A model generated the notes under the pieces. That model saw nothing but the letters and a program-made list of their open reading frames with translations. It searched no databases and was not told where the DNA came from. DNA of 64,000 nt, from NCBI GenBank assembly GCA_036172245.1, contig JAYWIR010000091.1:124001-188000 (forward strand), given 5' to 3'. This DNA is from Raillietiella orientalis. Taxonomy: Eukaryota. Shown in pieces: positions 3,001 to 63,722 of the stretch. The position numbers and the translations under genes are program-made. Every line of letters begins with the position of its first letter. Position 1 is the first letter of the stretch.

Positions 3001-4065
3001 ATCGTCTGGCCGCCACACCACTCGCCGCAGCGCTGTCTGCCCTCAGGGCAGGCAACGACGGTTGCCTACCGGCGGAATGGGAGTTCTCCTTGAAAATAGC
3101 GGGAGTCAGTAAGCTTCTCGGCAGCTGGATGACAAAGGAAGTGGTGCAAGCCGCCACTCCTCGGAATCGGGCGAAGGGCCTGCTTCGGTGGAGCGAACAA
3201 TCAAGTGTGCTTTCAGAAGAGATAATATTTCCCCCTGTTTGTTTGGACAGCTCCGTGTTCCCCCTAAGTGGAAACAAGATGTGCTGCTCTTTTTGCATTG
3301 TGCATTACACTGTAAAAGGCAGCGTAGCATCATTTCCTAGGGAGCTGCTTTGCCAAACTGTTTAAGGTGCGGAGAGATCGAGTCTTTTCCGCATCTTTTG
3401 CTGGACTGCGGTGATCTCCGGGAACTGTTACGAAGGCTCACTTCGGCCATCATGCCACAAGGAGGCACTGCCATTGATGTGCTGCGGCGCTTCTTCAGCA
3501 GAAATGGAGTTTCGGTTGGCGCGATTGTCGCAACCATGTGTTGCGTTCGCGCCATCGTGAAGGCATCCTACGCCCTAAAGTTCTCAGCGCAGCGACGGGA
3601 GGCTCACCTCCTTGCAGCTCAATTCATGGAGAAGGCTTCAAGGTGAACTCATCTTTGTGAAAAGGTGAATGGGGACATCACCTGCATACATCGTCGGTTT
3701 ACAGACCTTTGAGAACGGCGTAATCCGGTGACCCTTGCGACCTCTCGCCCCCCATACCCCGTCCCCGTTCGCTCTGTAGAATTTCCGGTGCCCATGCTTT
3801 TATCCCCGTGTCTTCTTGAGCGATCCCAAAGACCCTTATCCCGTCCTCCTTATTCATTGTTTTTATTTTATTTTGGTTTCTTTGTGTTCCCCGCCCCCCT
3901 TACACCGCTCGCAAAACTGTTGCTCTGGCCTGCGTGCCAGCAATATTCTCTTCATTCTTGTTCAGTCGTCGGTTGGGAGTTTGGTTTCAAACTAGTTTAT
4001 TTTGTATAATTGTTTTTTTTTTGTTTATGTTATATGGAATAAACGCCCCGTCGTGACCGGGTGAG
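1..4065 (+). mobile_element. E1: L1/Tx1-like non-LTR retrotransposon (family B), 5' part outside window, disabled, internal deletion in RT
   Basis: ORF1 tail ends in TGATG (872-876). APE motifs SWNVNG/LQE/NVY/AGDFN/SDH in ORF 871-1617. RT motifs KAPGEDG, NWRPITL, HKAFD in 2096-3112, with the QG/YADD region missing at ~2735. CLRCGE..HLLLDC at ~3350. T-rich 3' UTR, AATAAA at 4038 plus terminal hairpin. Confidence 0.93.
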
Positions 4066-6135
4066 AAATCTCCTCGACGTCTCTTGCATTGATCACGTTA
4101 ATCTCCTGGAGAAGCGCCAGGTCGAATTCTCGCAGGGTGTCGGCTGTATCTCGCCTGTTGCCGTCGTCGCGCAACCCGTTGAAATTCCAACAGGCCACGC
4201 GGATTCGTCGGCGACAGGAGAGCCCAGGGATTATTCCTGGGAACGTAGCATTGCGGATCTCGCCACGTTATCGGGTGGGACGGATGGAGGAGGGGGTGCA
4301 TCGCGCACCGGTTCTCCTTTCTCCACGAAGGCCGATTCCGATTCAGGCCTCATCATTGTGGTTCGGCAGGTCTCTCCTACCTGCAATTTCTCCTCCATGA
4401 GGTCCGATTCGCCGGCTGGACCTGTCGGAGGAAGGGAGAAGTTGTCACCTACCTGCTCTTTCTTCTCCATTGGGGTTGACAGCTGCTCGCTCGCGAGGAG
4501 CGGGATATTGCTTCCCTCCGTTCCCACGCTGCCGGCTTCCCCTTCGGCTGCCGGTGCGTCCCCTCCTTCTTGGTGAGGATGTGCCTCCTAGGATTCTTGG
4601 ACTTCAGTCCCGTCTTCTTTGGAGGTGCCTCCGCGGACGAGGACGCACCACCGGCATCTAGATGGGCATGACATGCTTCAGTTGCTTTCACCGTGGCCGG
4701 CCTTCTTAAGGCCTTTCTCTCCGGGATCTCGCGGCCGACGAGTTCGGCCACGAGCTCTCCCGCCGCCTGTTCGTAAGCGGCATCCTCGATTACGGACAGC
4801 GCGTCGCACGGCTCCTCCTCTGTTTTCAGAGAGGTTTCGCCTTCGGGGATCGCGGCCTTCACGCAAACGAGGCGGGGGATGTCTCCCCGGTGGCGACCAC
4901 CAAGGCCACCACGCGCTTCAAAGTGACCGAGCATTCGCGAAGTGGTGCGCGGCGCTCTCTCGTTTCTAGAGATTTCGCCGCTTGCTCCGCTTTCGTGCTT
5001 TCGATGTTCTTATTTTTCCTTGGCTTAACCGTCTGCCAGTCCTCGTTCTCACCAGCGACGTAGGGAGTTTTCTCGACCGGCGATTGCTGAGAGGGCTGGG
5101 GGTCTGGTTTCTGGTCACGCCTTGCTGCAGCTATTTCGCGCTTTGTTGTTCTTACCGCGCGTTCTCCTTTAGCTTTTTTCAAAGCGACGGAGGCCGGAAT
5201 TTCTTGCTTTGCCCGCATTTTCCGGAGGTGGCCCTTTTCTCCGCATGAGAAACACTGAATGTGCGGGCACAATTTTCTCAGGTGTCCTGTCGCATCGCAG
5301 TGTCCACAGTCCTTAAGTTTCCCCACGTACCAGACATCGACCTTTTCGTTAGCGACGTCCAGCTAGAGGGGTAACCCACCGTTTTCATGGACGGTTACAC
5401 GCGCTGCGGCCATGCCACTAAACAGTCTTCCATATGATTGTAAGACGTTGGGCTTGCTCCAGAGGGCGTGTACCGTGCCGTACTTGCTGAATTCCTCCTT
5501 GACGCCCTTCGTCGACATGCGGAGGGTAACTCCTGTGAGGTGCGCTACTACCTTGCGTTCCTCAGTTGAAGGGAAGTGCTTTCTGCTTTCCAGCGAAATG
5601 GGGGTGTTCAGCAGGCGTTGAGTCAGGCTTGCATCCTTGCAAGTCAGCTCCACCCGCTCACCCCCGCTCAACACTGAAAGACCTTCCAGCGCTTCTTCTT
5701 TGACAATCAGCCGCTGCAACTCCCTCTCGAAATTGCGAGCGGTATTTCCAACAAAGAGACTGCCTACCTTATAGATTAGGGACGACTTGTATCGTTGTTC
5801 TTTGTAGGCTGATAGTTCGGCCATGGCAGCAGCGGATGGTGCTGCAGCCAAGGCGCTCCAAGTCATCGTCGCTGGCGACGATGGCTCTGAGGACACGGTT
5901 GCACACTTTTCCATGGATGCCGATGTCCTTGCCTCCGTGGGGGTGATTGCCTCCACCACCATGGGTCGGGGAGAGGAACTAGAGTCTCCCACTCCAATCT
6001 TCATCGAGGTGTCCGCTGGCATTTCTGCCATGGGACACCGACGATGTGCCACACACTCTAGCTTACGAATCGAAATAAACGATACTTCTCAAACTGGAGC
6101 GGTCGGTGTGAAGGAAAAACACGTCCGCCACACTT
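4066..6135 (-). mobile_element. E2: 5' part of family-A element (5' motif, ORF1 6031->4231, start of endonuclease), cut by E1
   Basis: GCGGACGTGTTTTT on minus strand at 6128-6115. Zinc knuckles CGHCDATGHLRKLC and CFSCGEKGH (ORF 4859-5326). EN start ..VACWN..LLQEI ends at the E1 3' end. Confidence 0.88.
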
Positions 6136-8247
6136 CGACGAAGAATGTCGTGTGGGTCAACATGTTTTCAAGTGGTCCGAATCCAGAGCGTTGCAGGGTT
6201 GCTGTCCAGATGTTCCACGAGAGAAAACAGCACTGGAGCGAGGTAAGTTTTCCTCGCCCACCCTGGTTTTTAAGGGTTCTTTAGGACCTCCTGGAGCGTG
6301 AGGCAGTCATTACGGGCGAAGAAATGTCTCTGTTCTTCTTGGGTGCGTTAATGACTGCTCCTTACCCACGCCTGAACCATTTCTTGCAGCCATGCAGGTA
6401 TGTTACAGGGGCGACAGCCGAGCCATTCCGCGTTCTTCCACATCAGTTCAGCCACTCTCCGCAGCTGCAATCCGCAGTGACCGACTTGGCGGCGACGGCA
6501 GAGAGCAAGGAAGGATGACAGTCCCAACTTGCCTGTGGCCTGTTCGACGACGAGACGTACAGGCTTCCACCAGCTGTTACTCCAATATTTCGCCACAAGG
6601 GGAGTAACCAAAACTTGGCCTGCTGCTTAAGCTGCTGCAGCGTCAGGAGGCGGAAACCTCCATCCCGACGCGCAGCGCTCAAATCCACAAGCCGGACTCG
6701 AGCCCTCCCATTACCCCACAGGGCAATATTTAGGAGGTACTTTGTCCGCTTTTAGTCTCTGTGGTAGGGGTACAAACAAAAAGTAGGGAACGGAGGAGAG
6801 GGCCGCGAACGCGTTCCACACAGCGGCCCGTTCCGGCAGGGAAAACCTCCGGCCTTGGAACGGGCCGATTGCAGTCTCCACCTTCTGAGGACAGCTGGAC
6901 CACGCATCCGAAGGGAGATAATCACCCATCGGTACACCGAGGTACTTAAAGCATGTACCGTGGAAATACCCAAACGGACCCTGTCCGACTGTCCTGCTTA
7001 CGTTGCACCGACTGGCATGACGGATGAGTTCACACTGTTCTCCTGAAGCCCTGTTCCCCGACTAAGTAGGTCGAAGAACTCCTCGACCGCCGAAGCCGGG
7101 GTGGAAATGGGGAGCAGGAGCAGAAGGTCGTCCGCGTATGCTGACACCACAGGCGTATTCGGATAGTCGCTCGGCAGGTGCGCGAGAGTTTCCCTGTACG
7201 CTCTCAGTACCAACTCGAAGTAGGTACTGAAGAGCAAGGGACTCAGGCTGTCTCCCTGCCGTATGCCGCGTCGCACCGGTACGCCGTGCACGTAGTGTCC
7301 ACTGAAAAAGTTCTAAATGAGCGCGTCGCGCCAGCAGGATCGCAGGTAGGTCAGCAAAGTGACCGGGAAACCCAAGCGTTCCAGGAGCTCCAGGAGGAGC
7401 CTCTGGTCGACACAGTCGAATGCTTTATGTAAATCGACTGCGACCGCGAGGGCTTCCTCGCCCCCCAACCATCCCGTTTCCTAGCCTCAAAAATTCCGGA
7501 AGTCCGGTTTCCCATCCTGACCCTTTCCTTTTGGAGCGCGAAGAAGGTACTGGCGAGAAACAGGTTGGCATCTATGCTTCGCCCGGGAACAGCATATGTC
7601 TGTTCCGGGCTGATGAAGACATCCGCCAACCGCCCCAGGCGTTCAGCCCACAACTTTGCCAGCAGCTTGACGTTTGCGTTTATCACGGTAATCAGCCGCC
7701 AGTTGCTTATGCTCCGAAGGTCTCCTCTCTTAGGGAGGAGACGCAACTTTGCCGAACGAAACGAGGTGAGGACGTCTCCCGTTTCGCGGATCTGCAAGGT
7801 GAGCTGATGTACCAGCGTAGTAAGCTCTGCCGCGAAAGTTTGATGAAACTTTGCAGGCAGGCCGTCCTCCCCTGGAGCCTTGCGCCTCATAAGCTTTCCG
7901 ATGGACGAGTGATCTCGCCCATCGTGAAAGGCTCGTCCCGGGTCCTTCTATCTTCCTCCCCGAACGACGGAGCGCCTTTCGGAAGAAGTCGCGAGACATC
8001 CCGTTCCAGTGGAGCGTGCGCGTACAGGGAGGAGTAGAATTTTCTTAATAAGTCTTTTACCTGTGCGTGGGTCGAGTTCTCCGAGCCCTGGTAGTCTAGC
8101 AAGCTGGCCGACCCAGATTGCCATGCCTGCCTCTCGGCTCCTGCGCGGTATTCGGCTAGCTTGCGTACGTCTGGTGTTTGCGCGTAAAGTCGTGCTTGTA
8201 AGTATGCTCTCTCGTTACGGCCGCCTTCGCCAGCCGCTCTTGTGGAG
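6136..8247 (-). mobile_element. E3: degenerate ORF2 fragment (linker, RT, part of C-terminal region)
   Basis: KAPGEDGLP, LLPKRGDLR..NWR (7351-7890) and GIRQGDSLSPLLF..AYADD (6998-7291). Multiple frameshifts. Confidence 0.88.
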
Positions 8248-11200
8248 AGCGGACGAGTTTTTTCGGCGCTCCGTCCACGAGTACCGGAAAGCATTTTTTT
8301 TTTCTTCTGCAGTGTGTGCGTGTTCACATCGTTGGTGTACGATGGCATCGCTGCCAGAGTACACCACGATGGAAGTAGGCGTGAGGGAGGCTAGTTCGCC
8401 ACCACTGCCTACTGGATAAGGAACAGCCGCCTCGGAATCATCTTGGCTTCGCCGAGGACATCGTTGCCGCGCCGAGCGCGAAAAACTTTTCTGAACAAAA
8501 CGCATACAGAGCCAACGGTTACAAGCCGTCGCTTGTCTACAAGGTAGGCAACCTGTTCGATGGCAAGACTGCACGTGCCTTTACGAAGGCACTGCAGTCT
8601 GCAAACGTTCTGGAGCAAGATCTTCTCGGCCTCTTCGTCCACAGCGGGGTCAGCGCGTCGAGGTAGTCTACAAAGACATTACCTTGTCACAGCGTCTGAT
8701 CACCTCCACGCTGAACGTTGATGGACGCAAGATCTCGCCGGTGACCATGAACCGCTCCGTGGCTGCCCATCTCACTGGAAACACGAGCCGTATGACTCGC
8801 TCTGCGGTCGGAGAAGAACTTCAAAAGTTCGGCAAGGTGCACGCGCTGTGGCCAAAGCCCACCATATTTGACGGCTACAATAGGTTTTTGGTGGTCAGGC
8901 TGCAGCGCGGGTAACCGTGAAGCAGGAGTGTGGGCTTCCCCACAAGCTGGAGGTCGCGCAAGAGGGCGTAGACCTCTGGTATGAGGGAAAGCCTTGGTAT
9001 TGCTGTTACTGTGATGCCGTAGGAGAACTTCGCAAGAGGTGTCCTAACATACAGTGCCGCAGGTGCAAAGAGAAGGGCCACGTTCGTCGTGTGTGCTCAA
9101 AACGCCCCACCCCAGTTCCCCACGCCGCGAAAAAAGCGCAGGGGAAACGTGCGCTAAAGGTCCAAGACCTAAGTCGGACACTGCCCGACAGAGGCTGCCA
9201 GATCCTAACCCTCCAAAAGAAAGGACGGAGGATAAACCTTCCGAAGTAATGGGAGGTGAAGAGGGCTGGCAACTCGTAGCGACCAGAAAGACAAAGAAAG
9301 CTCCTCCAGAGGAGAAAAAAGAAAAGAAGCCGGCCCCATTCGAAGACGTTGCGCGAGTGCACGGTAGCATTCGAACGCATTGCCGTTCCCGAGGCTGCCA
9401 CCCGGGGAGACGAGCCTCCCCTTGCCGCTTCCGCCGCGCCCGAGGTTCGCGACGGCGAATTCTCTGTTTGCACAAAGGATGATCCGCGCGACATAGCGGC
9501 GGTCGAAGCCGCGGACGCCGCGTTCGTGCAGGCGGCGGAGGAGCTCGCGGCCACGCTGGCTAAGCGTGACAACCCCTCACGCAAGGCCGTGCAAAGGCCA
9601 CCGCAGGTGAGTTCGACATGGGGGTCGAAAGTGCATCCTCCTCCTCGGAGGCACCCCCCAGGAAGTCGGGACGCAAGTCCCAAAAGCCGAGGAAGCGCCT
9701 TCCCTCCACGAGCGAGGAGGAGAAGCAGGAAGTCGCCGGCAGCGTGGGAATCCCGGAGGGGGAACTCCCACACGCGGATGTCGCCGAGCAGGCCACCCCC
9801 ATGGACGAGGGTGAGCAGGAAGGCGAAGTCCTCCTCGCTGTCGCGGATCCTGAACAGCCCGCTCCTCTGAAGGAGGGCCAAGAGGTAGGCGCGACCCCAA
9901 CTGAGGGTGACCCGCTCGAAGCGCCGGTACCTATGGAGGAAGAGGACCAGGTGCCTTCAGCACCTGTCCCCCCTCCCTCTCCAGATAGCGTCCCGCCTCA
10001 ACAGTTGGCGGACGTCGCATCGCCAATTTCCCAGGAATAACACCTGGACTCGCCAGTCGCTTTCGGATCCGCGTGGCCAGTTGGAACGTCAACGGGCTGC
10101 GCGACGACGGCAACAGACGAGATACGGCCGACACCTTGCGTGAGTTCCACCTGGCGCTGCTGCAGGAGATCCACGTGATCACCGCGGCAGACGCCCACGA
10201 GATCGAGACGATCGCGGGGGGTCGGCTGTATTGGGGATGCGGCCTCCGCAACACCTGCGGGGTCGCGTTCTTCGTGAAGGCGGCCATCGACGCGGCCGTG
10301 AAGGGCGTGCGCTTCGATGACGACGGTCGGGTCGGTCAGCTGATTCTCAGCTGGTCTGACTCGATCGATCTAATCGTCAGGAATGTGTGCGTCCCCAGCG
10401 GTAAACCGGGATACAGCGACCGTACCAGGCTGCTGGAATCCCTGAAGCGCCGTTGGCTGGTCGATACGAACGTGCGGAAGGCACACCTGATAGCTGGGGA
10501 CTTTAATGTCCGTCTGCTGTCAGGTGAGCCCGAAGTGCAAGAACGCACGGCCAACGAGTTGTGCGCTGCCATGCGCTCGCCCAACTTGTTGGCGAACGCG
10601 GATGGAATGGACCGCAGCGTAGACCACGTCTTCCTGGATGCCGACCTGTGCTCACGGGTCGGCAAACGGGGCAAAGTTGCGTTGACGCTGTCGGACCATT
10701 CCCGGTTAATCGCCGAAATATTCCCACGCGAAACAGGACCCCCGTTCATGGCGTGGCGGCTGCCTGGGGACTAGATGCGACTCTTAGGTGCGAAAGAACA
10801 CCTTCGCCAATTCCTGAGAGGCGTCACCTTCCGGAATCACAACGACTGGGACTTCTTAAGGCCTCGGACCGACAGTTTTGCGAGGAGTTCCCTTTGCACC
10901 GCCTGCCTCCCGGATTTGGGTAGGGGGCTCGGAACCATAAGGCTTATTCATAGGTCCGTCGGTACGAGAGGACCCTGAGTGTCCGTCGCCTGGCCGAAAA
11001 TTGAGTCGGGGCCGAGCGCCAACCTAGCAATCCGGGTTGGCCAGCATGCTGGACGAACAGGGCCTGTAGCGCTTGGCCCCAATCCGATCAGGCACCTCTT
11101 GCGACGGTTTTATTTCTTCCTTTACGCCAGGTCACCCCCAGAGCGGGATGCCTCGTGGATCCTGCTTCCGGACGGAGCATCGGCAATAAGGGAGGAAGAA

Positions 11201-13239
11201 AGGATTATCCTCGACGAGCGTGATAATACTGGCGAAATTTTCGCATGTATTAAAAGGCTTAAGAGGCGTAAGGCGCCAGGGGAGGACGGCCTGCCCGCGT
11301 TGTTTTTCAAATGCTTTGCGGCAGAGCTGGCCCCCCTGGTGCTTCGGTTGACCGGGCTGATCAAAGACGAAGACGACGTTCCCGAATCGTTTCGGTCAGC
11401 CCGAGTGAGGCTCCTCCCAAAGGGAGAAGACCTGCGAACACTTGAAAATTGTTGTCCGATCAGAATTGTGAATACGGACGCCATGCTGATTGCTGGACTG
11501 TGGGCTTCGCGTTGAGGACAGGTGGCAGACTCCATAATTAGAACGGAACAGACATACGCTGTTCCCGGGAAAAGCATGGATGCCAACCTGTTCTTCACGA
11601 GCACGTGGTTCCAGGTACAACGCTGCCCCAATGAGTCAGGAAGCAAGATTAACAACCCCACTTTGGGGCCGCCAGCGTGGCTGGGGATGGACACCCGGGC
11701 GGGGAAGGGGGCCCTAGCGGTTGCGGTCGATCTCCATAAGGCGTTCGATAGCGTGGACCAGGAGCTACTATTGGAGCTCCTGGGTCGCATGGGCTTCCCA
11801 CCCTCCCTTCTCTCCTACCTGCGCTCTTGCTGGCGGAATGCGCTGATTGACATCTGTTTTAGTGGACAAACGACTACGGCGTGCCGGTGCGACGGGGCAT
11901 ACGGCAGGGCGATAGCCTCAGTCCCCTGCTCTTTAGCACATACTTTGAGTTGGTGCTGAGAACATACAGGGCGACCCTGGCAGCCTTGCCTAGCTCGTGC
12001 GCCGGCACGCTTGCCGTTGCAGCAAACGCCGACGATCTTTTGCTGATGTTGCTCATGTCCTCCCAGGCAGCCGCAGTCGAAGATTTCTTCCACCTGCTAA
12101 GCCGTGGGACTGGATTGAAGGTTAACAAGGCGAAGTCGTCGGTCGTACCGGCTGGAGCGACGTGGATCAGACGGCATGACTGGATCCGCTTGGGGATCCC
12201 CACGGCCAGGTACCTGAAGTACCTGGGTGTCCCGATGGGGGACTTCTGCCTCGCCGAAGCCTGGTCAAATCCTCTCCAAAAGGTAGCGTTGGCAATCGGC
12301 CAGTTCCTGGAAGGCAAGTTCCTTCTGCTGGAAAGGGCCGCGGTGTGGAACGCCTTCGCGGCTCCTATCCTCCGCCCCCTGCTTTTTGTGTGCCCCGTCC
12401 TTGCTCAGTTGAAAAAGAGGACCAAAGATTTTCTCCGTATCGCCCTCTGGGGCAGCGGGAGTCCAAGAGCGCCTCTGAAGGACATATGCGCTCCGCGTCG
12501 GGACGGCAGTCTTGGCCTCCTGACGTTGGAGCGCATGGACATACAGCTGCGAAGGCGCAGCCACCCTATCGCAGCAAAGACATGGAACACCCCTTGGTGC
12601 GTTCTAAACCCGTATCCTCGCCAGACGTGTATCCAGGACGCAAGGACTCGCGTCTTTTCTTCTGTGCTCCGGCCGGAAGGTCAGAAGTTTCGGCCTTCTT
12701 CTTGGACGCATGGAAGCCCTGGTGAGAGAGAACGGCTAAACGGTATGCAGCCCCGCCAACTCCTCCGCTTGGCTGGAGGAAGCCGTTAGGACGTGGGCTA
12801 AGATCAATCAACCGGAAGCACATGAATGGAACCGCCTGCGATTCGGTCCCAACGCCTGCTTTACACTGCGGACTACTCTGGAGTGTCTGAAGTGTGGGCT
12901 GAGACTACCCCTTTAGCTTCGACCCTGCCCTTTCTGCAAAGGGCTTTAACCAGCGGCCGGACGCCAAAGTGGAAAGTCTTCTGCCAAATCGCAGGCAGAG
13001 AGAAGAAGATGAGCAGCTGGACCATGGGAGAACTGGCAGATGTTACGACCCCGAGTGCTCTCACGCGTGGACTTCTTAGATGGGGCGAGCTGCTCGGCAT
13101 CCCGACGGATGACCTGAAGTGGCCCCCAGTATTAATTGGATCCAGGCTTCTCTTACTGAAGTGGCAAAAGTCGGCGCTGCTGCTGTTGCACTGGAGTCTA
13201 CCCGGCAATGCGCGTCGCTTCCACTGGTAGCGGAGAAGT
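8248..13239 (+). mobile_element. E4: family-A element from 5' end to just before the zinc finger, interrupted by E5
   Basis: 5' motif GCGGACGAGTTTTTT at 8249. ORF1 8342-10040 with knuckles CCYCDAVGEL..C and CRRCKEKGH..C. EN 10040-10774. RT fragments 10979-12789. Ends at NARRFHW. Confidence 0.9.
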
Positions 13240-18551: not shown

Positions 18552-18569
18552 GAGTGCGGACGTGTTTTT
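18552..18569 (+). promoter_or_regulatory. Conserved 5'-terminal motif (G)CGGACGTGTTTT, candidate internal promoter element
   Basis: Variants near the 5' end of E2 (6128-), E4 (8249+), E6 (16183+), E7, E8 (24474+), E11 (41736-) and E15 (57956-). Confidence 0.55.
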
Positions 18570-39095: not shown

Positions 39096-39096
39096 A

Positions 39097-53662: not shown

Positions 53663-56474
53663 TCCATTGTGGTTCTGTTCTGTAGTAGAGGTAGTTAATG
53701 TTTCTCTTTGTGTAAGAACGTCGCCTCGAATGACGATATAATTGTCGAAGATCTTCTGTACTTTACACATCAGACAGGGGCTTTCCTTTTTTCTTTTGAG
53801 AACACTGGAAATAATTGTAATGTATGGCTGAGTAATCAATAACGTCCTACACCTGGGGGTACTTGCAGTTTGGACATTGAGGTGAGCAAATTCTATGTGA
53901 GCCGCGAATATTGTTTGATTTTAGGTGGAGGGGCCTCGTGCTTCTGAGCAGATTAATTTCTTCCTTGAAGGACCAGACCGTTCTTGTACTGTAACTTATC
54001 CTCAGAGTGTTGCCACGTATGTATTTTTGTGCATTCTTGTTTCCATTTTAAAACGATTTGCTTTTTGCCGAATTTGAATCGAATACATATTTTCTTCAGA
54101 TTTCTACTACTGTGCATGTCTTCTGCGAAATCATTTACCAGAAATTGCTTCTGCTTTCTGTTGATAATTATATACATATTATATCTTTTTGATGTTTGTG
54201 CAGCTGGGGCATTTAAAATCTTCGTCTGAATTCGCACGGGTTTCAAAAAATTATCGGAGAGCTTCAGTTTGCAATTATTGACTTCAACCTTCTCTTTGCT
54301 CCTACTTTCTCACATCATCTGGAAGGAATATAATTTGCGGAAGCAAGATGTTCTATTCTTCGAATGCTATGCCGGATTCTAATGGATTGTTTTTGATTCC
54401 GTACAAATGCGTGGGGATTCTCTTAGGCTACGTCAAGGCCGGAATGTGAACCCTGTACCTGGCAAACTAAAATGCACATGGAGGTCTGGAACGATCGTCA
54501 CTGTAAAGTTGAAGAGCTTAACTAACTAAAAGCGTTATTATTCTTCAATTCGAGAAGAAAAGTTTCTTTCCATTTTGCTGTTGATTTTTCGTGGAAATTT
54601 GAATTATTTTAAATAAAAAACTTATTGCACTGATATCCTTTCTTCATAGGACCACATGTGTCGACCAAGTAATAAAAGCACAATTAAATGGACTTTTCCT
54701 ATCCTCATTTACATTCTGGATTCCGCATCACACAAAAAACTGATATGTTCCAAAAATATAGATGCTAGATTTCCTGTCTTTAGAGAATTTTAAAATGGTT
54801 TTCATTCTCTGATTTTCCAGAATTTCATCTTTCAATTGTTAGATTTTCATATTATTCGTTCTCAAAGAAAACAAGTTGTTGTGTGCATTTCGTGATAAAT
54901 AGTTGACTGCTTGGTTTGAAGATGTTATTACAATGTCAAACATTGAAACTAAAGTTTCTCTTTATTAAGATCTACTTCAATTATTAATTAGGTCAGTGGT
55001 TGTCATAATGGCGAACAATCCACTAACAATTATTTTATCGCATTTAGCCATCTCTCTTATAGAGTTTTTTTTACTATAAGATTAATAAGCATTATCCGTC
55101 ACTACTACCATCGATTGTTTACATTTAAGATCATCATTATAATTTCTAGCTTCTTTGCATTCGATCCTGCAAGTGTTCCTTCTGCACTTAATCTGCACTG
55201 TTATTCACAGCATCTTTATCAGCAAAAATCAAAACTGCTCCAATTCAACCTTCAAATGAATTACGAATCTCGCTTGCAAGAACTTATGTGAACAAAATAT
55301 TTCTTCCATTCAACAGTTTTATCATAGAATTCTCCTTTTCCAGTCACAACATACGCACCATACGCATATCCTTCTTTTGTGTGCCTCACATATGACTTCC
55401 TTTAAATGGAAAATGTGAAGACAGTCCGTGCGCAGCGAGTCGATACGCCGGAAAGAATGCAAAGTCTCGCTCGACTCTCGAGAATCCTACGAATTTGTCC
55501 GTACCTTGCGATAAGAAAGTGCTAAAGGCAAAGGTAGCGAGAAAGCAAATGGCTAGGATAGCCCAACGGGGAGACGTCGAAAGGCCTTCGCATCGAGCCG
55601 AGGCAACTCAGAAGACGACCAGGCCGTCTGGATTCTTGTGGAGGGAAGAAGAAACTGAGAAAGACAAGAGATGCTTTCCATTTCCCCATCATAAAAGTAG
55701 GAGGTGTGAGTAGGCATCCCCGTGCGTCGAGGAATTTGCATGAAAAACTTTCCACTGCGATTGCGTGGGCTGACACTGCTGGCCGCCGTGAAAGGGAAGT
55801 TGAAAACGCCGAAACCTTGAGTGGCGGATCGTAGACGGCGACTCCTTCGCTGAATGCTGGAGCATGTTCAAGCTGCCCAGCAAAAGTGCTGATAGAAAAA
55901 ACATTTATAGTGCACAAGAAATTTATACTCCGAGGTGGAGTCCGATGGTTGCTCATTGGGTCCCCAAGTTTCTTGGAAACCCTAGGCTACGCGGAAAACC
56001 AAAGTTTCCAGGAGTAAGCCTGATTCCGCGAATGGTTTCCGATACTCTACGAAGTCCAAGACAATGTTCTTTGACTTCTGAGAGAGGGCCGAGCGCGGCG
56101 TGGAGGAGAACCAGCATGGTTGCGCTCCCGAACATGCTGCGCTCCAGGGTGATGCCGCGCGGGACAGGGCAGGGAAGGCACCGCCATTTTCGCAACATTA
56201 ATGAGTGGGCTCTTATCTTCTCGTTGCGTTCCCATGATCAGCTGAAACATCAACAGGCTGCAGGTTTATGATGATAGGCGGTTGTTGGCTCACGTATTGC
56301 GCGAAGTCCCATCAGGTCATGCTGCTGAAGGCACGCCTCTTCTCCGAACAGCAAGCCGCCGATCTGGCCGATTTATCACGTAGGACACCCAATTAACGGC
56401 AAAACTCTCAGAAAGCGTGCAGAATACCAGTCGTTGTCCGGAAGAGGGTGAAAGGGGAAGTGCGGAACTTCTGT

Positions 56475-56950
56475 TTCCATGTTACCACCCGGTCACAGAG
56501 GGGCATTTACTATAGAGAAAACAACCGATTCGGTAAAAAAGCCCCTTTACGGCTAACACAACAACGGACCTGCCTGCCTGTTGACGGGCAGAACGACTTG
56601 ACTTTCCACAGCAGCGGACGTGGAAAGAGGGAAAAACAAAAAAAAAAATAAAGCAAAATTAAATAAAGAAAATATTTGGAGGCTCGGTAAGGGATCTCTA
56701 CCCGCTTGATGCAATGTGCATTTACTGCAGGATGTCTTCGAGGAACTTTATCATATTCGCTTATAGTTTGGGCGATTGTGTTGCTATCCACATGAAGCGA
56801 ACTGCATATCCGATCACGTTCCTGTAGTAGTCATCACCTTCTTCGTCACATATTCTCCAGGCGGCGATAGTACTGCGGAAACATGAAAACGCTGCTACCG
56901 CTACTGCTTACTTTTAGGCGTGCCGCACGAAGAGGATCCGAAAAACAAAT
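56475..56950 (-). mobile_element. E14: old 3' terminal fragment (ORF2 C-terminus and 3' UTR)
   Basis: Manual translation FRILFVRHA..AAFSCFRSTIAAW resembles the other ORF2 ends. Terminal TGCCCCTCTGTGACCGGGTG at 56505-56486. Confidence 0.72.
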
Positions 56951-56954
56951 CTGC

Positions 56955-57172
56955 AAACTCGAGGAAAACTTCCACGTTACGACCCTGAGTGTCCCGCCGG
57001 GAGGACTAAAGAGATGAGGCGAACTCTTCAGCACCCGAGGGAATAGCCTGAAGTGGTCCCCGATATTCACATGATCCAGGATTTATCCCCTAAGCTGGCA
57101 AGAGTCAGCTCTTACGTTATTGCAATGGGTCTTTCCGGCAACTCACGCCTCTTCTTTTGGTCGCTGGGAAGT
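56955..57172 (+). mobile_element. Short ORF2 fragment (pre-zinc-finger region), cut by E15
   Basis: Reads ..LKW..SRI..WQESAL.LLQW..GNSR.FFW, homologous to E4 13040-13239. Confidence 0.7.
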
Positions 57173-57960
57173 TCTCACCAAGCTTCGCCAAGGCGTTCAT
57201 TAATAAACACTTTACATCTACGATGCTAGGACCCGCAACAGTTAATAGTTTATAAGATCTGCCAGAAAGCAAGTTTGCAGACCGGATACACTCTCCTCGG
57301 CAGTGGAAGGGGACAGATTGTAGGAACAAAAAGAAAAATAAATGAAATAAGCAAAAAGAAACTATTTGGTGGGCCGTGAAGTGTTTGCAGCCCGCTGGAG
57401 GAAGAGACCATCTTTAACGGGATGCCCTCGATGTCCGTCCTAATATCTCCCAGATGATACCAGCCTATCACGATTCGCATGTAGCGACCCGCGTGTACGA
57501 CTGGGCCCCTGTCGCTGCTTCCTCTTTTGGCTACGCTCCACGAGGCCACAATGTACTGCCCTCCGCAACGTATGTTCATAGAGCACAGCTTCTCCTGCTG
57601 TACATTGTTAGCGCGCATCTTTTTCAAAAATTGACGCAGGCTTTCAGAACAATACAGATTGCCTACCTTGTAGAACAGCGAGGGGTTATATCCCTCTTCC
57701 ACATAAGCAGACAGTTGCGCCGCGGCAGCAGGCGACGACGCCGACACGACGGCGCTTCACGCCCGCGCTGCATCGGGGACCGATTCCGCGGGGCGGATGA
57801 CCTCATCTCCATCGCCACTGAAGGAGACGTTGCCGCCGCCTCCTGTCACGCACTGGTGGTCGTGTCAGGCATCGCTGCCAGATCGACAACCAACACACAC
57901 GAAGTCTACACCTAGGGACGTTTCCTGGTACGAGGAGCACTGAGTAAACACGTCCGTCCT
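57173..57960 (-). mobile_element. E15: ~790-bp internally deleted element retaining both termini (ORF1 N-terminus fused to ORF2 C-terminus)
   Basis: 5' CGGACGTGTTT at 57956-57946. ORF 57250-57747 joins ORF1-like PSLFYKVGNL..GGQ to ORF2-like IVASWS..GWYHLGDIRTD. 3' UTR resembles E5, with terminal hairpin 57195-57176. Confidence 0.8.
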
Positions 57961-57967
57961 AACCGGA

Positions 57968-60081
57968 ATTAAGCATTTGACTGCGTCGACCGGGAGCTCC
58001 TGCTGGAGCTTTTAATGCGCTCGGGCTTTCCGGCCTCTTTATTGGCCTTTCTGCACTCTTGCTGGCGCGACGCGCTGACCAATGTAACTTTCAGAAGAAG
58101 GAAGAAACGTGTTCGGTGTGCTGGTGCACCGTGGGATACGCCAGGGTGACTGCTGGAGCCCCTTGCTCTTCAGCACCTACTCTAGGCTAGTGATCAGGGT
58201 GTACAGGGAAACTTATGGTCGCCTGCCGCGCGTGTGCACAGGTGCACCGGTCGTGGGATAGTATGCGGACGAACTCCTGCTGCTGCTCTCCATGTCCACC
58301 CCGGCGTCGGCGGTCGAAAACTTTTTCGAGCTGCTGCGTCGCGGGACAGGGCGGGAGGTAAACAGAGCGTAGTGGTCCGTTGTTGCAGTTGATTCGTCGT
58401 GGACAGGGCAGCCGGACTGGTCTCGCTTATGGATCCCAGCGGTACCGTACTTCAAGTACCTCGATGTGCCGTTGGGGGACTATTCCTTAGAGGAAGCGCG
58501 GTCTAACTGCCTCCATAAGGCCGAGAGGGCGATTGGCGCTTTCCTGGATGGCAAGTTTTTCTTGCCGGAACGGGCCGTGGTGTGAAACACGTTTGTGGCT
58601 CTTCTGTTTCTCTCCTTGCTTTTTGTTCGCCCTTCACCTTGCGATGTGAAAAAGCGGACAAAGGACTTCCTAAGAATCGCCCCTTGGGGCAGTGGGAGGC
58701 CCCGATTCCGCCTGAAGGACTTGTGTGCTCCTCGTTGCGATGAAAGCCTCGGCCTCCTCACTGGAGCGGCTCGAACTGCAGCTGTAGTTCAGGACGTTAG
58801 TCCTAGTGACAAAGACATGGAGCACCAGCTGGTGCGAGCTTGCACGATGCCTTGTTCAGCGAGCCGGCGTCTGCGGAGGAATGTCTACCTTCCTGGCGCG
58901 CCGCAAACGCCGGTATCTGTTCCACTGCGGACTGGCACTTCGGCGAGTGGCAAAGCTGACCAGCAAGAGCATTTATATCTCCTACCGGCCCGCGAACGGC
59001 ACCTCCTGGTTGCAGGAAAGCCTTCGCAAGTGGGCCCAGATTGAGGAAGCGAGCCTGGAGTCGCGGCAGCGAATGCTGCACTCCTATCAAAAGAGCCGCC
59101 TCTGCAGGACATCATCGTGCCGCCCACCTTTAGTGCGTGGGCATAGAGGACCCCTCTTGCCACAGCATTGTCCCACCTTAAAGAACACCTGGGCAGTAGC
59201 CAGCCGGCGAAGTTGGAGGTCCGATTCAGAATCTTGTCAAGAGATAAAGAACAAGGTGGTTGGATCACAGGCCAGCTGACTGACGCCGCGACCGCAAGTG
59301 CCCTACCGAGAGGACTGTCGCGCTGGGGAGAGCTGCTGAGCATCCCTCTGGATGTACTCGAGTGGCCCTCACTGCTGAGGAACACCCGGGCCCTCCTTCT
59401 GAAGTGGCAGGAGTCGGCGTTCTTCGTGTTGCACTGGGGACTCCTTAGCAACGCTAGCCGTTCTCACTGGACGATGGGGGCTGTGAACCCAAACTGTGCC
59501 AGGTGTTGGGAACAGGAGTCCCTTTCGCACCTTCTTGTTGACTGTGTTGCCCTCCAGCTGCTGTGGTTACATTTCGCAACGGCCCATGGTGCACCCTTGC
59601 ACGCTCGCAGAGACGTTTTGTAGCGCCTCTTTGTGCGCGACGCACTTTCGCCCGCCACAGCCCTTGCAGCCCTCTGCTGCCTACGAGGGATAGTGCAGGC
59701 CTGGAACACCGCCAATGATGGACCGAACGACAGCGACATCATCTGCTCTGCTCTGCGCTTCCTGATGACGGCAGCCGGATGGTATCATCTAGGACAAATG
59801 CGGACTCAACATGCCAGAATCCTTGAAAGGATGTAAAGGACGACCCCAGCGGAACGTGATTCCATCCCCAACTCCTCCCTGCTGTTGTAAGTTGAGTTTA
59901 ATTTTTGGTTTTGTTGTTCCTTCCCCCCCGCTGCCGAATCAAAATCGCCGGCCTGCGTGCTGGTTTCCCGGCGAGTTTAGGACTTTCATAAGAACATTTT
60001 TTGAACGCTGTAGGGGGAAAAGCCCTACAAATCCTACTTTGTTTTCATTGCAAAATAAACGCTTCGGCGCTCCCAGGTTTC
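57968..60081 (+). mobile_element. E16: 5'-truncated degenerate element (RT to 3' end)
   Basis: KAFDCVD, GIRQGD, YADE, KYL; CARCWEQESLSHLLVDC. AATAAA at 60054. Confidence 0.88.
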
Positions 60082-62757
60082 AAAGAAGTGCCGACTGTTG
60101 CCACTTCGTGGGGAGGGTGTACGAGTTTATGAGCACCGGGGCACTTGAGAAGTTCCTCGGAACTTCCAGTAGCTCTTGTCAGAGCAAGAGTCCATTTGGG
60201 GTGGTCCTCGGGATCGCAGCGTTGGAAAGATGACCCGTTCTCCAGTCCCCGATCTTGTTTTCCCTATTGGCGATGCTGAAAGTAACCTCCCATTGTGCAT
60301 CGATGTCGCTGCCCAGATGTTCCCGTAAAGTAGACAGTACCGCAGAAAGGGAGGTTTTTTGTGCCCACGCTGTGCTTCGGGGATCCTCCACGATTTCTCG
60401 GAGCGTGCGGTGGGCGTGCGTCCCGAAAAGAGCTATTCTCTCGTGTTGCGGGCTCTGCTCATGAGTCATCGACCACGTGCGCACGGTTTCCTGCAGCCAG
60501 GCAGGACCCTTCACGGGGCGTACAAGGATCCGGGCCGAGATGGTCTTCACGAGCTTGGCCGCCCTCCGAAGCTGAAGTCCGCAGTGGCAGATGGGGCTTC
60601 GAAGTGCAAAGTAGGACAAGAGTCCCGCATTGCCGGTGGCCCGCTTGACAAGGAGACGTGCAGAGAGGCACCAGGGTGTGCACCAGTTTTTTGCCATAAA
60701 GGCAAGTATCCGGAACTGGAGCTGAAGCTCCAGCCGCTCCAGCGTCAGGAGGCCCACATCACCATCCCGACGCGAAGCGCACAAGTCCGCGAGACATACT
60801 CGGGGCCTCCTTCTGCCTTAAAAGGCTATCCTCAGGAGGTCCTTCGTCCTCTTTTCCATCTCCGCTGAGGGGGTGCAAACAAAAAGCAAGGGGCGAATTA
60901 GGGGGGCCGCAAACGCGTTTCACGCCGCAGCCGTTTCTGCAGGAAGAACGTGAGGTCCTGGAACGGGCGGATCCCCTCCTTGGCCTTCTGAAGCCAGCCG
61001 GACCACGCTTCCACGGGAGGATAATCCCCCAACAGCACACCAAGGTACTTGAAGTACCTCACCGTAGGAACCGTTAAAGGTACCCAGTCGTGCTGCCCTG
61101 CCCACGCCGCTACGACTGGCAGTACAAACGACTTCGCCCTGTTTACCTTGAGTAGTGTTCCCCGACTGAGCAGATGGAAAAAGTCCACCACCGCCTAGGC
61201 CTTGGTGGATATAGGGAGCAGCAGCAGGAAGTCGTCCGCGTATGCCAAAACCACAGGCGTACAGCGACAATCGCGCGACAGGTACGCCAAAGTCTCCGTG
61301 TACGCACTCACCACCAATTCAAAATAGGTGCTAAAGAGCAAGGGCCTGAGGCTGTCTCCCTGCCGTATACCACGTCGCAACGGTACGCTGTGCACGGTAT
61401 TCCCGATGACAAACACATTAATAAGCGCATCGCTTTAGCTGGAGCTCAGTTAGCCCAGCAAAGAGGCCGGGAAGCTTAAGCGTTCCAGAAGCTCCAACAG
61501 GAGATTCTGGTCGACGCTGTCGAATGCTTTACGGAAGTCGACAGTGACCGCACGGGCCCATTTCCCCACTCGACCGTCGCGTTTCCCATCAACGTACGTA
61601 CCAGAATTCCGGCTGCTTATTAAGCCCCTTCCTTGTTGGAGCTCTAAGCATGTGAAAGCGTGAAAGAGGTTCGCCTCAAACATCGCCCTGGAACAGTATA
61701 TGTGTGTTGCGGACTGATGGAGATGTTCGCAACCCGTCCCAGACGCTCTGCCCACAGTTTAGCTAGCAACTTGAGGTCCGCATTCACTTTTGTGATGAAA
61801 CGACAGTTGTTTATGCTCTTCAGGTCTCTTTCCTTAGGGAGGAGCAGCAACCTTCTGAACGAAACGAGGCGGAAACGTCACCTGTCTCGCGAATCAGCAA
61901 GATGAGCTGATGTACCAGGGTAGTAAGCTCTGCCACGGAAATTTGGAAAACCTTTGCAGGCAGGCTGTCCTCCCCTGGGGCCTTCCGTTGTTTGAGCTTT
62001 CCGATGTCCGAGATGATCTCGCACACCGTGAAAGGCTCGTCGAGGCTCCTTTTCTCCTCCTCCACGATCGCTGGAGCACCTTTCGGAAGCAGGAGTCGTA
62101 AGATATCCCGCTCCGTAGGGGCTCTGGCGTACAGGGGGGAGTAAAATTTCCTAACTATCCCGCGCTTCTAAGCAGGATCCGAGTGCACCCGGCCCGGGTC
62201 GTCCAGCAAGCTGGCCCACATGGATTGCCGAGATTGCCTCTCGGCTCCCGCTCGTTACTCCGCTAACCTGCGCATGTCGGTGGTCCTAGCGTGACAACAA
62301 GTCAGCAGACAGGCTCGTTCGCTACGGACCCCGGTCCGAAAACCCGGAGGTAGGCGGTGCTGAGGGAACCGGTCACAAAACTCCTGGTCCCACCGCTTGA
62401 AACGGTTTGAATCCTAAATTTTCTGCAGCCTAAAGCTCTGTATAAACGTGCGGAGATGTTTCGCCCCGTCTGAAAGCTTTAGCCAGTCCCCTGGAAGTCG
62501 CCACGCTTACGAGGGAGGACCCCTGTCGCGGGGGTAAACCCCGAGGAAGATCGGGCGATGGACGGACAGCTCGCAGGGTAACTTGCCGCGCCTGCCCACG
62601 CGAGGGCACACGTGCTGATCAAGGAACAAGTAGCCGATGCTGTCCTCCATCCTTGGTTCACTGGCCAACAAATTACAGGTGTGCGCAGCCATGCACACCT
62701 CCTTGACCAGGTCATGCTTGTGATTCTGCCCATCTCGTTTCAGGCGAACGTTGAAAT
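60082..62757 (-). mobile_element. E17: ORF2 fragment starting exactly at FNVRL of the EN GDFN motif
   Basis: FNVRLKRDGQNH.. (ORF 62507-63046), KAPGED, KAFD, GIRQGD, AYADD, KYLG. Similar to E9. Confidence 0.88.
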
Positions 62758-63722
62758 TTTTTTCCTCGTTCACGCCGGGACGTTGATTGATATAAACGAG
62801 CTGGAAACAGTTGTTTCCAGCTTTCGACAATAAAAAGATGCAGCGGAGATTTACGCCTAGCACGCAGGCCAGGAAAACGGAAGAACATGGACGACTGAGG
62901 GGTGTCAAAAAAAAAAAAATTGTAAACGGGAGGAGTGGGCCAGGGAACTTTGGTGACGCTCCACAGTCACAGGGAAAGTCAAATGTTTTGGCACCAAAAT
63001 CACTGCGGAGCGTAGAGGAAAAAGGACGCGAGAGGAAAAAAATCAATTGAAAATAAAATGAGGGCGGATCACCCGTTTCGTCGTTCTAAGCGGTTGCTCA
63101 TCCGGCGATGGATACCGGTTAGCTCATCCGTTGTGTCCTCCCATGAGTGTCGACACTCTGCCGCCAATCTGATGAAGTCAAGTTATTTCCTGGTGACATA
63201 ACATCGCCGTCCAGTGTTCTCGAGCACGTCTCGGATTGTGACGACGGCGCGGATGCAACCAACAGTGGAAATCATCGCAGCCATCGAAAGTCCTTGTGGC
63301 CGGAAGAACCGCCGCAGCACTTGTCTAGCGGTGCCCCCCGGTGGCGGGAGACCTTCTGCTAGCCTCCGCTACAGTTCGTGGAGGGCAGCGCCGTCCATAT
63401 CAGGGTGCGGGAACGAATCGTTCGCTTCGCACTGCGCACAGTAGAAAGAAGCCACCCCACCGGAATCCCGTTGTCGCCGCTCGTCGTAGCGCAATCCCCA
63501 GTGCAAGGAGAGCAAAACGTCTTGCTTTTATGCAGGGGGAAACATCGAACCGTACAAACACCAGGGAGGGACTATAAGTTCCTCGGGGGCAACACCAAGA
63601 GCTTCTTCCCACCGAAGTAACCCTTATGGTGTAGTACGAGGAGTGGCGGCATCCGCAATCTCGCTCGTGGCCCATTCGTTAACTGGTTTTGTTCTTCCTG
63701 CAATGATGCAGGAGGAACCTGC
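62758..63722 (-). mobile_element. E18: 3' ~1 kb of a family-B element
   Basis: IIAGRTK..W.TSEIADAATPR and C-terminus resemble E7/E8. 3' UTR with GGCCTGCGTGC. Terminal AATCAA-CGTCCCGGCGTGAACGAGG-A6. Confidence 0.85.

What the first reader, a model, noticed from the sequence alone, without database searches (positions are those of the whole stretch)
4064..62763. Shared non-L1 target consensus A-Y-Y-T-C at element 3' junctions
Seen, in element sense after the short A-tail: E1 ATCTCC (4068), E5 ACTTCT (13239-), E7 ATTTCA (24461), E8 ATTTCA (30377), E6 ACCTCC (33583), E10 ATCTCC (39099), E15 ACTTCC (57172-), E18 ATTTCA (62757-). That is 8 of 11 ends. E12 is a near match (ACGTCC after a short spacer); E14 and E16 do not fit. 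Ignoring the A, YYTC occurs by chance about 1 in 64. This differs from the TT/AAAA preference of mammalian L1. Inference: the EN nicks the bottom strand at about 5'-GARRT^, a specificity shared across subfamilies.
Basis: partly seen in the sequence, partly recalled or inferred. Interest (0 to 1): 0.75.

Follow-up and report, generated by a model that had tools for sequence, protein, structure and literature searches.

The report
Retrotransposon target sites sharing a pyrimidine start
The A-Y-Y-T-C strings are real target DNA next to the 3' ends of LINE retrotransposons, but the eight cases reduce to four fixed landing sites inside sister LINEs, so a common cutting motif is only weakly supported.

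Summary
All 8 hexamers are at the stated coordinates, directly after a conserved 3' end (AATAAA, short hairpin, GGTGA, 1-7 A).

They are host DNA, not element termini. Uninterrupted sister copies carry the same bases, and target-site duplications (TSDs) start with them.

The 8 cases are not independent.
- E7 and E8 are a tandem dimer sharing one 9-bp TSD in the endonuclease GDFN codons of E6. E18 sits at the same nucleotide in another host.
- 'E5' is the 3' half of the element that hosts E10, and it shares its site with E15.
- E6 and E10 bound one block inserted at one site.
- 'E12' is the 3' end of the element that hosts E5.

This leaves 6 sites, and 4 read AYYTC. E12/E14 read ACRTG directly after the tail. 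E16 is unclear.

Allowing free choice of motif, 11 of 3000 random site sets are as extreme. Using the 5' TSD copies instead gives 421 of 3000.

Specificity is much longer than 5 nt. AYYTC occurs about 1 in 218 positions, yet hits recur at single nucleotides.

Verdict: these are site-specific LINE families nesting in each other's coding motifs. This scan already noted that on other pieces of this genome. A shared nick-proximal 'A then pyrimidines' core is plausible but unproven. No genome was available for a logo.

The parts
211..4067 (+). E1. A 5'-truncated LINE with an internal deletion at 2737. Its 3' end is ...GGTGAGAA.
   Evidence: nhmmer map against E8. RVT_1 hit. 3' end shown.
4068..6105 (-). 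M1, the host of E1 (5' half, including the endonuclease N-terminal part). Site S4: E1's flank ATCTCC is the antisense of codons about 17 after the LQE motif.
   Evidence: 7 of 8 uninterrupted paralogs read ATYTC at the homologous position.
6166..8232 (-). M3, a LINE fragment that ends at the LPxGFG site (S2), where the 5' end of P1 abuts it. The left target copy reads AGCCGC.
   Evidence: The alignment 6634-9151 vs 14543-17089 runs through both junctions.
8233..13239 (+). P1, left part. It is interrupted by M2 at site S3.
13240..16171 (-). Its flank ACTTCTCCGCTACC (13239 downwards) is the 3' copy of a TSD of about 14-16 bp.
16178..18551 (+). E6, 5' half. It ends with TSD copy 1, ATTTCAATC (18543-18551), which is the codons GAT TTC AAT of the endonuclease GDFN motif.
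18552..24460 (+). E7, a full-length LINE and the first unit of the tandem dimer.
   Evidence: 94.8% identity to E8 over 5930 nt.
24461..30376 (+). TSD copy 2 (24461-24469) followed by E8, a full-length LINE with a 765-aa open frame carrying RVT_1.
30377..33582 (+). TSD copy 3 (30377-30385) followed by the 3' half of E6. The 3' end is ...GGTGTAA.
33583..37540 (+). E9, a 5'-truncated LINE with no 3' end. Its first bases, ACCTCC, are the flank of E6 and are homologous to AGCTCG or AACTCA in sister copies.
   Evidence: Exo_endo_phos and RVT_1 hits.
37612..39098 (+). E10, a 5'-truncated and internally deleted relative of E6 (84% identity over the 3' 350 nt).
39099..41778 (-). M2, 5' half. E10's flank ATCTCCGGGGCAGG is the antisense of the LPxGFG codons (site S2). 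The left copy, ATCCCC, lies at 16164-16169.
   Evidence: Both halves align to one uninterrupted paralog and overlap in AAATCCC/AAATCTC.
41779..42388 (+). It starts with the 5' TSD copy of M2 (reverse complement of 41782-41797 = ACTTTTCCCCGTGTCC) and ends ...GGTGAAAA.
42389..42759 (-). H0, the host of P1's 3' end. Site S5 is the antisense of the endonuclease codons R-F-D|D-D. The flank reads ACGTGTAAAC.
56134..56484 (+). H1, the host of E14, at the site homologous to S5. In E14's sense the flank reads ACATGGAAAC.
56485..57000 (-). E14, a 5'-truncated LINE 3' end.
56972..57172 (+). P1', a host fragment carrying site S3. E15's flank reads ACTTCCCAGCGACC.
57173..57558 (-). E15, a LINE 3' end related to M2 (72% identity over the 3' 350 nt).
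57962..60079 (+). E16. Its left edge is at the RT KAFD codons. Its 3' end is degenerate and its junction with E17 cannot be placed to the base.
60082..62757 (-). E17, the host of E18. It begins, in its own sense, at ATTTCAACG of its GDFN codons (site S1).
62758..64000 (-). E18, a distant relative of E7/E8 (62-64% identity over the 3' 350 nt). It runs off the window.

Best explanation
The window is a nest of APE-endonuclease/RT LINEs in which each family inserts at its own fixed nucleotide inside a conserved coding motif of sister LINEs.

The AYYTC strings are the first bases of those target sites: the start of the TSD, just 3' of the bottom-strand nick. The eight cases reduce to four sites.
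- S1: GDFN codons, sense orientation, ATTTC.
- S2: LPxGFG codons, antisense, ATC(T/C)C.
- S3: just upstream of the C-terminal Cys motif, antisense, ACTT(C/T).
- S4: endonuclease N-terminal part, antisense, ATCTC.

Shown here: host origin of the bases, the nick position at S1, re-use of sites, and one site per family.

Inferred: the related endonucleases share a nick-proximal preference. The bottom strand ends in T, which can pair with the terminal A of the RNA, and that T is preceded by purines. This would act as a short core beneath a much longer family-specific recognition. R1Bm endonuclease is a precedent: it has a 5-nt core yet the element uses one 14-bp rDNA site. The core is neither sufficient nor universal here.
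For: Element type: RVT_1 and Exo_endo_phos domains.

Host origin and nick position:
- Three identical copies of the 9-bp TSD ATTTCAATC flank the E7-E8 dimer. Uninterrupted copies read GGnGAYTTYAAY there.
- M2's TSD copies are ACTTCTCCGCTACC and ACTTTTCCCCGTGTCC.
- The two halves of M2 align to one uninterrupted paralog and overlap in AAATC(C/T)C.
- 7 of 8 paralogs read ATYTC at E1's site.

One site per family (combined):
- E7/E8 (93% identical) and E18 use S1.
- E6/E10 (84%) use S2.
- M2/E15 (72%) use S3.

Specificity longer than 5 nt: AYYTC occurs at 0.0046 per position, yet hits recur at single nucleotides.

Core signal: 4 of 6 sites read YYTC. Only 11 of 3000 random 6-site sets give an equally extreme best 4-letter motif. 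The first target base is A at S1, S3 and S4 with a non-A host base before it.

Precedents from papers (passages or abstract read):
- Tx1-clade families insert in (TC)n, (TTC)n, (TTCC)n and (TTTC)n, and at fixed positions in DNA transposons (PMC4494074, passages).
- R1Bm endonuclease has the core 5'-A(G/C)(A/T)!(A/G)T (PMC1919474, abstract and passages).
Against: - Only 6 sites are available, and the motif was chosen after seeing the data.
- Using the 5' TSD copies for S2 (ATCCCC) and S3 (ACTTTT), the best motif is no better than 421 of 3000 random sets.
- S5 (E12 and E14) reads ACRTG and E16 does not fit.
- At S2, 0 of 7 uninterrupted paralogs read AYYTC. P1's 5' junction in M3 uses AGCCGC.
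- At S1, 3 of 6 unoccupied GDFN sites also read AYYTC, so the motif does not predict occupancy.
- E6's flank ACCTCC is the internal sequence of the truncated E9. It is therefore either a microhomology junction or chance.
- Some repeated junctions could be old duplications and not separate hits. The E12 and E14 junctions lie colinear in an inverted structure. At S3 the element (72%) and its flank (67%) are about equally diverged.
- No genome-wide data and no enzyme assay.
Confidence: 0.55

Rival explanations
1. Coincidence plus a forced A. Each family has a long target of its own. The only shared feature is a target A at +1, whose complementary T primes on the RNA's terminal A. The YYTC resemblance among four sites is chance, helped by choosing the motif after seeing the data and by the pyrimidine-rich antisense strand of coding motifs.
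For: - 421 of 3000 random sets match or beat the data when the 5' TSD copies are used.
- S5 and E16 do not fit.
- The S2 paralogs read ATCCG, AACCG or AGCCG.
- The motif does not predict which GDFN sites are occupied.
Against: - With the 3' junction copies only 11 of 3000 random sets are as extreme.
- At S3 the two occupied hosts read ACTTC, while 0 of 5 paralogs from other families do.
- At S2 the occupied host reads ATCTC at the 3' junction, while 0 of 7 paralogs do.
- TC-rich targets recur in the Tx1 clade (PMC4494074, passages).
Confidence: 0.3
2. One short consensus (bottom strand 5'-GARRT^) is the main determinant of where all subfamilies insert, in the way TT/AAAA works for mammalian L1.
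For: 8 of 11 ends read AYYTC. The nick geometry at S1 fits.
Against: - AYYTC occurs about 54 times per element, yet insertions recur at the same nucleotide: S1 twice or three times, S2 at least twice, S3 twice.
- Each family keeps to one site.
- E12, E14 and E16 do not fit.
Confidence: 0.05
3. The repeated junctions are copies of a few old insertions, spread by segmental or inverted duplication inside the cluster. The apparent site re-use and the AYYTC count would then both be inflated by descent.
For: - The E12 and E14 junctions are colinear within an inverted structure (41924-42818 vs 56953-56050), next to a 3.8-kb inverted repeat.
- The E5 and E15 homology runs across the junction, with similar identity on both sides.
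Against: - E8 keeps a 765-aa open frame yet is only 62-64% identical to E18. That difference looks like family divergence, not decay in place.
- The E7/E8 TSD copies are identical.
- The M3/P1 and M2/E6 junctions involve different target hexamers.
- Notes from other pieces of this genome report the same sites (not checked here).
Confidence: 0.08
4. YYTC belongs to the element's own 3' terminus, for example as read-through sequence carried along with the element.
For: None beyond its constant position after the tail.
Against: - Uninterrupted sister copies carry the same bases as part of conserved codons.
- TSD copies of the same bases sit at the 5' junctions.
Confidence: 0.02

Closest known systems
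Target-specific Tx1-clade LINEs: Tx1L in the Tx1D transposon; Kibi in (TC)n; Koshi in (TTC)n; crocodilian Tx1 families in (TTCC)n or (TTTC)n and in Mariner or Harbinger transposons (PMC4494074, passages read)
   Same: - APE-type LINEs with family-specific targets, some of them inside other transposons.
- T/C-rich target cores that resemble ATCTCC, ATTTC and ACTTCC here.
- Tandem arrays arising from repeated use of one site.
   Different: - Here the targets are coding motifs of sister LINEs of the same superfamily, in both orientations.
- Clade membership was not tested. The only pointer is an automatic cluster name.
- The nick positions of Kibi and Koshi were not seen in the passages read.
Zepp and Zepp-like L1 LINEs of green algae (PMC8226300 and PMC3446292, passages read; Higashiyama 1997 is not held)
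   Same: GC-rich clusters of nested LINEs that target existing copies and build arrays of 5'-truncated 3' ends.
   Different: - Zepp is listed as ending in (A)n (PMC3747384, table 3). Here the tails are 1-7 A after a conserved hairpin.
- Several families are present here, each with its own exact site.
- No fixed target nucleotide or consensus is given in the Zepp passages I read.
- Homology to Zepp was not tested, and the organism is unknown.
R1Bm endonuclease (PMC1919474, abstract and passages read)
   Same: A site-specific LINE whose endonuclease has only a short degenerate core, 5'-A(G/C)(A/T)!(A/G)T, within a region of about 10 bp, while the element uses one 14-bp site. This is the model proposed here of a short core plus longer recognition.
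   Different: Different clade, different target (28S rDNA) and a different core sequence. Biochemistry exists for R1Bm and none exists here.
Mammalian L1 (nick consensus TT/AAAA, recalled from general knowledge)
   Same: APE endonuclease, target-primed reverse transcription, TSDs and 5' truncation. The endonuclease has a weak sequence match to the L1 endonuclease structure 1vyb (E = 0.005).
   Different: No A-rich TSD start and no long poly(A). There is a conserved 3' hairpin, and the sites are fixed, not loosely chosen.

Membership tests
Target-specific APE-type LINEs (functional class) | ORF2 with an APE-like endonuclease and a reverse transcriptase | tested here: met
   Exo_endo_phos (E = 1e-14) and RVT_1 (E = 1e-21) in the window's frames.
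Target-specific APE-type LINEs (functional class) | Independent copies inserted at the same nucleotide of a recurring target, with a TSD | tested here: met
   - S1: E7/E8 in E6 and E18 in E17, with a 9-bp TSD.
- S2: the block in M2 and P1's 5' end in M3.
- S3: M2 in P1 and E15 in P1'.
Independence of some pairs is not proven.
Target-specific APE-type LINEs (functional class) | The endonuclease itself nicks the target sequence specifically | not testable with these tools
   Needs an enzyme assay.
Tx1 clade of the L1 group | The RT groups with Tx1L, Keno, Kibi and Koshi in a phylogeny | not tested
   No reference sequences were available. The only lead is an Atlas cluster named 'Transposon TX1 ... 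149 kDa' at score 0.97.
Zepp / Zepp-like L1 | Nested clusters formed by insertion into existing copies | tested here: met
   Nest H0 > P1 > M2 > (E6, E9, E10), with E7 and E8 inside E6.
Zepp / Zepp-like L1 | A poly(A) 3' end | tested here: not met
   Tails are 1-7 A after GGTG(N). Zepp is listed with (A)n in PMC3747384, table 3.
Zepp / Zepp-like L1 | Sequence homology to Zepp ORF2 | not tested
L1-type relaxed targeting (TT/AAAA) | A-rich TSD start next to a T-rich stretch, with flanks otherwise unrelated | tested here: not met
   0 of 10 recognisable junctions show this. Flanks are fixed coding motifs.

The most novel reading that the evidence does not exclude
A guild of related LINE families keeps an ancestral T/C-rich nick core, as in the Kibi/Koshi-type Tx1 elements, while each family has evolved a different extended recognition. 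Each then lands on a different conserved codon motif of its siblings (GDFN, LPxGFG, the motif before the Cys knuckle, the endonuclease N-terminus). The core would be the fixed part of a retargetable endonuclease.
Probability: 0.3. Interest if true: 0.7.

Novelty: new variant of a known kind. Interest (0 to 1): 0.42.

Why it matters
If a shared core holds genome-wide, this set of sister families would show how an APE-type LINE endonuclease changes its target while keeping its cutting chemistry. It would give closely related enzymes with different long targets and one common nick core.

It would also help explain how LINE-only islands, possibly centromere-like clusters, build themselves.

The core remains unproven on the evidence here. 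The solid result is the site-specific nesting, which this scan had already noted on other pieces of the same genome.

Tried and rejected
- Whole genome for a logo: none is held.
- Metagenome scan with a 25-letter pattern for the 3' end: 0 matches. The second scan that is allowed after an empty first one was not used.
- Sequencing runs: one DNA run (X1) holds 0.19 of the sampled words.
  - Its contigs were laid on 23500-43400 at 80% likeness. 622 records were laid; 376 only partly fit.
  - One 1040-nt record covers 29357-30395, which is 19 nt past the E8/E6 junction.
  - One 3755-nt record starts matching at 24461.
  - The output does not give the flanks of other copies, so no logo could be made.
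- TSD search by exact or near-exact match of each 3' flank: it found only the E7/E8 copies. A hit at 33679 for E10's flank lies inside E9's body and was dropped.
- TSD of E15: no copy found to the right of 57558.
- M1's 5' junction in M3 (about 6105-6165): the host is not alignable there, so no site could be defined.
- The idea that E6's flank ACCTCC is a TSD copy of S2 (11 of 15 matches to E10's flank by eye): weakened, because the bases align to E9's own sister sequences.
- 3' hairpin: RNAalifold gives only 4 pairs, one of them with a compensatory change. That is too little to claim a structure.
- Papers: Higashiyama 1997, Yamamoto 2003 and Christensen 2000 are not held. Whether Zepp or Tx1L nick sites resemble AYYTC therefore stays open.
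- Searches for a described target consensus of Zepp-type LINEs and reads of passages found none.
- Earlier-notes look-ups by words and by sequence gave nothing for this window.
Full report
WHAT THE WINDOW IS

The window is GC-rich (about 57%) apart from a low-GC block at 42.8-56.1 kb. It is filled on both strands with degraded frames that carry RVT_1 and Exo_endo_phos domains. These are APE-type non-LTR retrotransposons (LINEs). No whole genome is held for it, and the organism is unknown to me.

CHECKING THE OBSERVATION

Each follows a conserved 3' end: AATAAA, a short G+C inverted repeat, GGTG, 1-3 variable bases and 1-7 A.

A profile built from ten 100-nt ends finds those ten and no others. 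E16, near 60079, is an eleventh and degenerate end that I identified by eye.

YYTC occurs at 1 in 42 positions here, not 1 in 64. After an A its frequency is 0.020, and AYYTC occurs at 0.0046 per position.

IS IT HOST DNA OR ELEMENT DNA?

It is host DNA.
- E7 and E8 are a head-to-tail dimer, 94.8% identical over 5930 nt. The 9-mer ATTTCAATC stands before E7, between E7 and E8, and after E8 (18543, 24461, 30377).
- The sequence left of 18552 and right of 30376 is one element, E6, split at the codons GAT TTC AAT of its endonuclease GDFN motif. Uninterrupted copies read GGnGAYTTYAAY at that place.
- At E1's site, 7 of 8 uninterrupted paralogs read ATYTC after ...TCG.
- This removes the alternative that YYTC is the element's own terminus.

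SOLVING THE NEST

I mapped the window against two reference copies and aligned the junctions to uninterrupted paralogs.

- P1 (+) is 8233-13239 plus 41779-42388, so 'E12' is P1's own 3' end. It is split by M2, with a diverged TSD of about 14-16 bp. In M2's sense the copies read ACTTCTCCGCTACC at the 3' junction and ACTTTTCCCCGTGTCC at the 5' junction.
- M2 (-) is 41778-39099 plus 16171-13240, so 'E5' is M2's 3' half. Both halves align to one uninterrupted paralog and overlap in AAATC(C/T)C.
- Between the halves of M2 lies a block made of E6 (with E7 and E8 inside it), E9 and E10.
- The split point of M2 is the antisense of the linker codons LPxGFG. The codons themselves are read.

So E6 and E10 bound one block at one site. 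E7 and E8 share one TSD. E18 sits at the same nucleotide of the GDFN codons in another host, E17. E15 sits at the site homologous to M2's.

E12 and E14 also share a site, in the antisense of the endonuclease codons R-F-D|D-D. There the flank directly after the tail reads ACGTGT and ACATGG.

E16's junction cannot be placed to the base.

FAMILIES AND SITES

Identity over the last 350 nt groups the elements as follows, against a background of 53-60% for unrelated pairs.

| Group | Identity | Site |
|---|---|---|
| E7/E8 | 93% | S1 |
| E18 to E7/E8 | 62-64% | S1 |
| E6/E10 | 84% | S2 |
| M2/E15 | 72% | S3 |
| P1/E14 | 59% | S5 |

Elements that share a family share a site. TSD length differs by family: 9 bp at S1, about 5-6 bp at S2 and about 14-16 bp at S3.

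HOW STRONG IS AYYTC?

The proper unit is the site. There are six sites.

| Site | Reading after the tail | Fits AYYTC? |
|---|---|---|
| S1 | ATTTC | yes |
| S2 | ATCTC at the 3' junction, ATCCC in the 5' copy | depends on copy |
| S3 | ACTTC at two 3' junctions, ACTTT in the 5' copy | depends on copy |
| S4 | ATCTC | yes |
| S5 | ACRTG | no |
| S6 (E16) | unclear | no |

I compared these with 3000 random sets of six A-started positions taken from the LINE part of the window. For each set I took the best of all 4-letter IUPAC motifs at two offsets.
- Only 11 of 3000 sets are as extreme as 4 of 6 sites reading YYTC.
- With the 5' TSD copies used for S2 and S3, the figure is 421 of 3000.
- The simple binomial tails used p = 0.0185, slightly below the measured 0.020. 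They overstate the case because they ignore motif choice and non-independence.

Evidence against a general rule:
- 0 of 7 uninterrupted paralogs at S2 read AYYTC (ATCCG, AACCG, AGCCG).
- P1's 5' junction in M3 lies at that same site, with the target hexamer AGCCGC.
- 3 of 6 unoccupied GDFN sites read AYYTC just as the 2 occupied ones do.
- E6's flank ACCTCC is the first sequence of the 5'-truncated E9 and aligns to AGCTCG or AACTCA in sister copies.

Evidence for some role:
- At S3 the two occupied hosts read ACTTC, and 0 of 5 paralogs from other families do.
- At S2 the occupied host reads ATCTC at its 3' junction.
- The first target base is an A preceded by a non-A host base at S1, S3 and S4.

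MECHANISM

Shown: target-primed insertion with the bottom-strand nick immediately 5' of the target A. At S1, for example, the top strand reads GGGAG^ATTTCAATC^TCCG, giving a 9-bp TSD. Also shown: re-use of the same nucleotide by a family, and tandem arrays when a site is used twice.

Inferred:
- The T left at the nick pairs with the terminal A of an RNA whose conserved 3' end is recognised by the RT (stringent-type recognition; PMC3747384, passages). The predicted hairpin has only 4 pairs and little covariation.
- The related endonucleases share a purine-rich core ending in T on the bottom strand, beneath a longer family-specific recognition.
- After E9 had replaced the sequence more than about 6 nt downstream of the S2 nick, E6 still landed at the same nick. 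This hints that the determinants for that family lie upstream of the nick and within about 6 nt downstream. That is inference from one case.

COMPARISON WITH KNOWN SYSTEMS

- Site-specific APE-type LINEs are well known. Tx1-clade families use the Tx1D, Mariner and Harbinger transposons, and the (TC)n, (TTC)n, (TTCC)n and (TTTC)n repeats (PMC4494074, passages). The T/C-rich cores here resemble those repeats.
- R1Bm endonuclease has a 5-nt core although the element uses one 14-bp site (PMC1919474, abstract and passages).
- Zepp-type LINEs nest in existing copies (PMC8226300 and PMC3446292, passages). I found no stated target consensus for them (searches; the primary Zepp and Tx1L papers are not held).
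- Clade membership was not tested. The leads are an automatic Atlas cluster name and a weak match to the L1 endonuclease structure.

EARLIER NOTES OF THIS SCAN

Notes on other pieces of the same genome already describe families that hit the GDFN, GGAGAT (antisense ATCTCC), LPxGFG and KAFD codons.
- My S1, S4 and S2 agree with them. I found S1 before reading them.
- If the KAFD note's TSD is as written, its flank would start with the antisense of the F codon. In this window's copies that would not read AYYTC. This is my inference from an unchecked note.
- Here only a 5' junction at KAFD is visible, at 57962.

VERDICT

It is wrong that a 5-nt motif chooses the sites. The claim of a core shared by all subfamilies is unproven.

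Noticed in passing
42800-56100: A low-GC block (39-46% GC) sits inside the LINE nest. It has a 3.8-kb inverted repeat (44670-48433 vs 53601-49838, 82.5%). 15 frames of at least 110 aa gave no Pfam family. The LINE junctions on either side (41924-42818 vs 56953-56050, 56%) are colinear with the inverted repeat, so the whole region may be an old palindrome.
   Followed up: partly
8233 and 42388; 57173 and about 57950-57962: Two elements have 5' and 3' junctions at different kinds of site. P1's 5' end is at the LPxGFG site of M3, but its 3' end is at the R-F-D|D-D site of H0. E15's 3' end is at S3, while a LINE 5' terminus about 780 nt away abuts the KAFD codons of E16. Ectopic recombination between same-orientation copies, or large target deletions, could explain this.
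   Followed up: partly
16178, 18552, 24470, 8233, about 6105 (-), about 41778 (-): Full-length copies share a 5' terminus motif (G-rich, then GGACGTG, then a T-rich run), so 5' ends can be placed to within a few bases.
   Followed up: partly
2737 and 37807: E1 and E10 each lack about 730-780 nt just downstream of the RT core (E8 coordinates 3879-4605 and about 3758-4534). The two deletions are similar in position but not identical.
   Followed up: no
37541-37611: E9 loses homology about 130 nt before its expected 3' end. The next 70 nt match nothing else in the window.
   Followed up: no
S1, S2, S3 junctions: TSD length differs between families (9, about 5-6 and about 14-16 bp). The spacing of the second-strand cut therefore appears to be specific to each family.
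   Followed up: partly
18530-18551 vs 30355-30376; 41798-41806 vs 13240-13252: The host bases just upstream of the nick resemble the inserted element's own last bases (CGGGAGA vs CGGGTGA at S1; GGGTTC vs GGGTGA at S3). I did not test this against chance.
   Followed up: no
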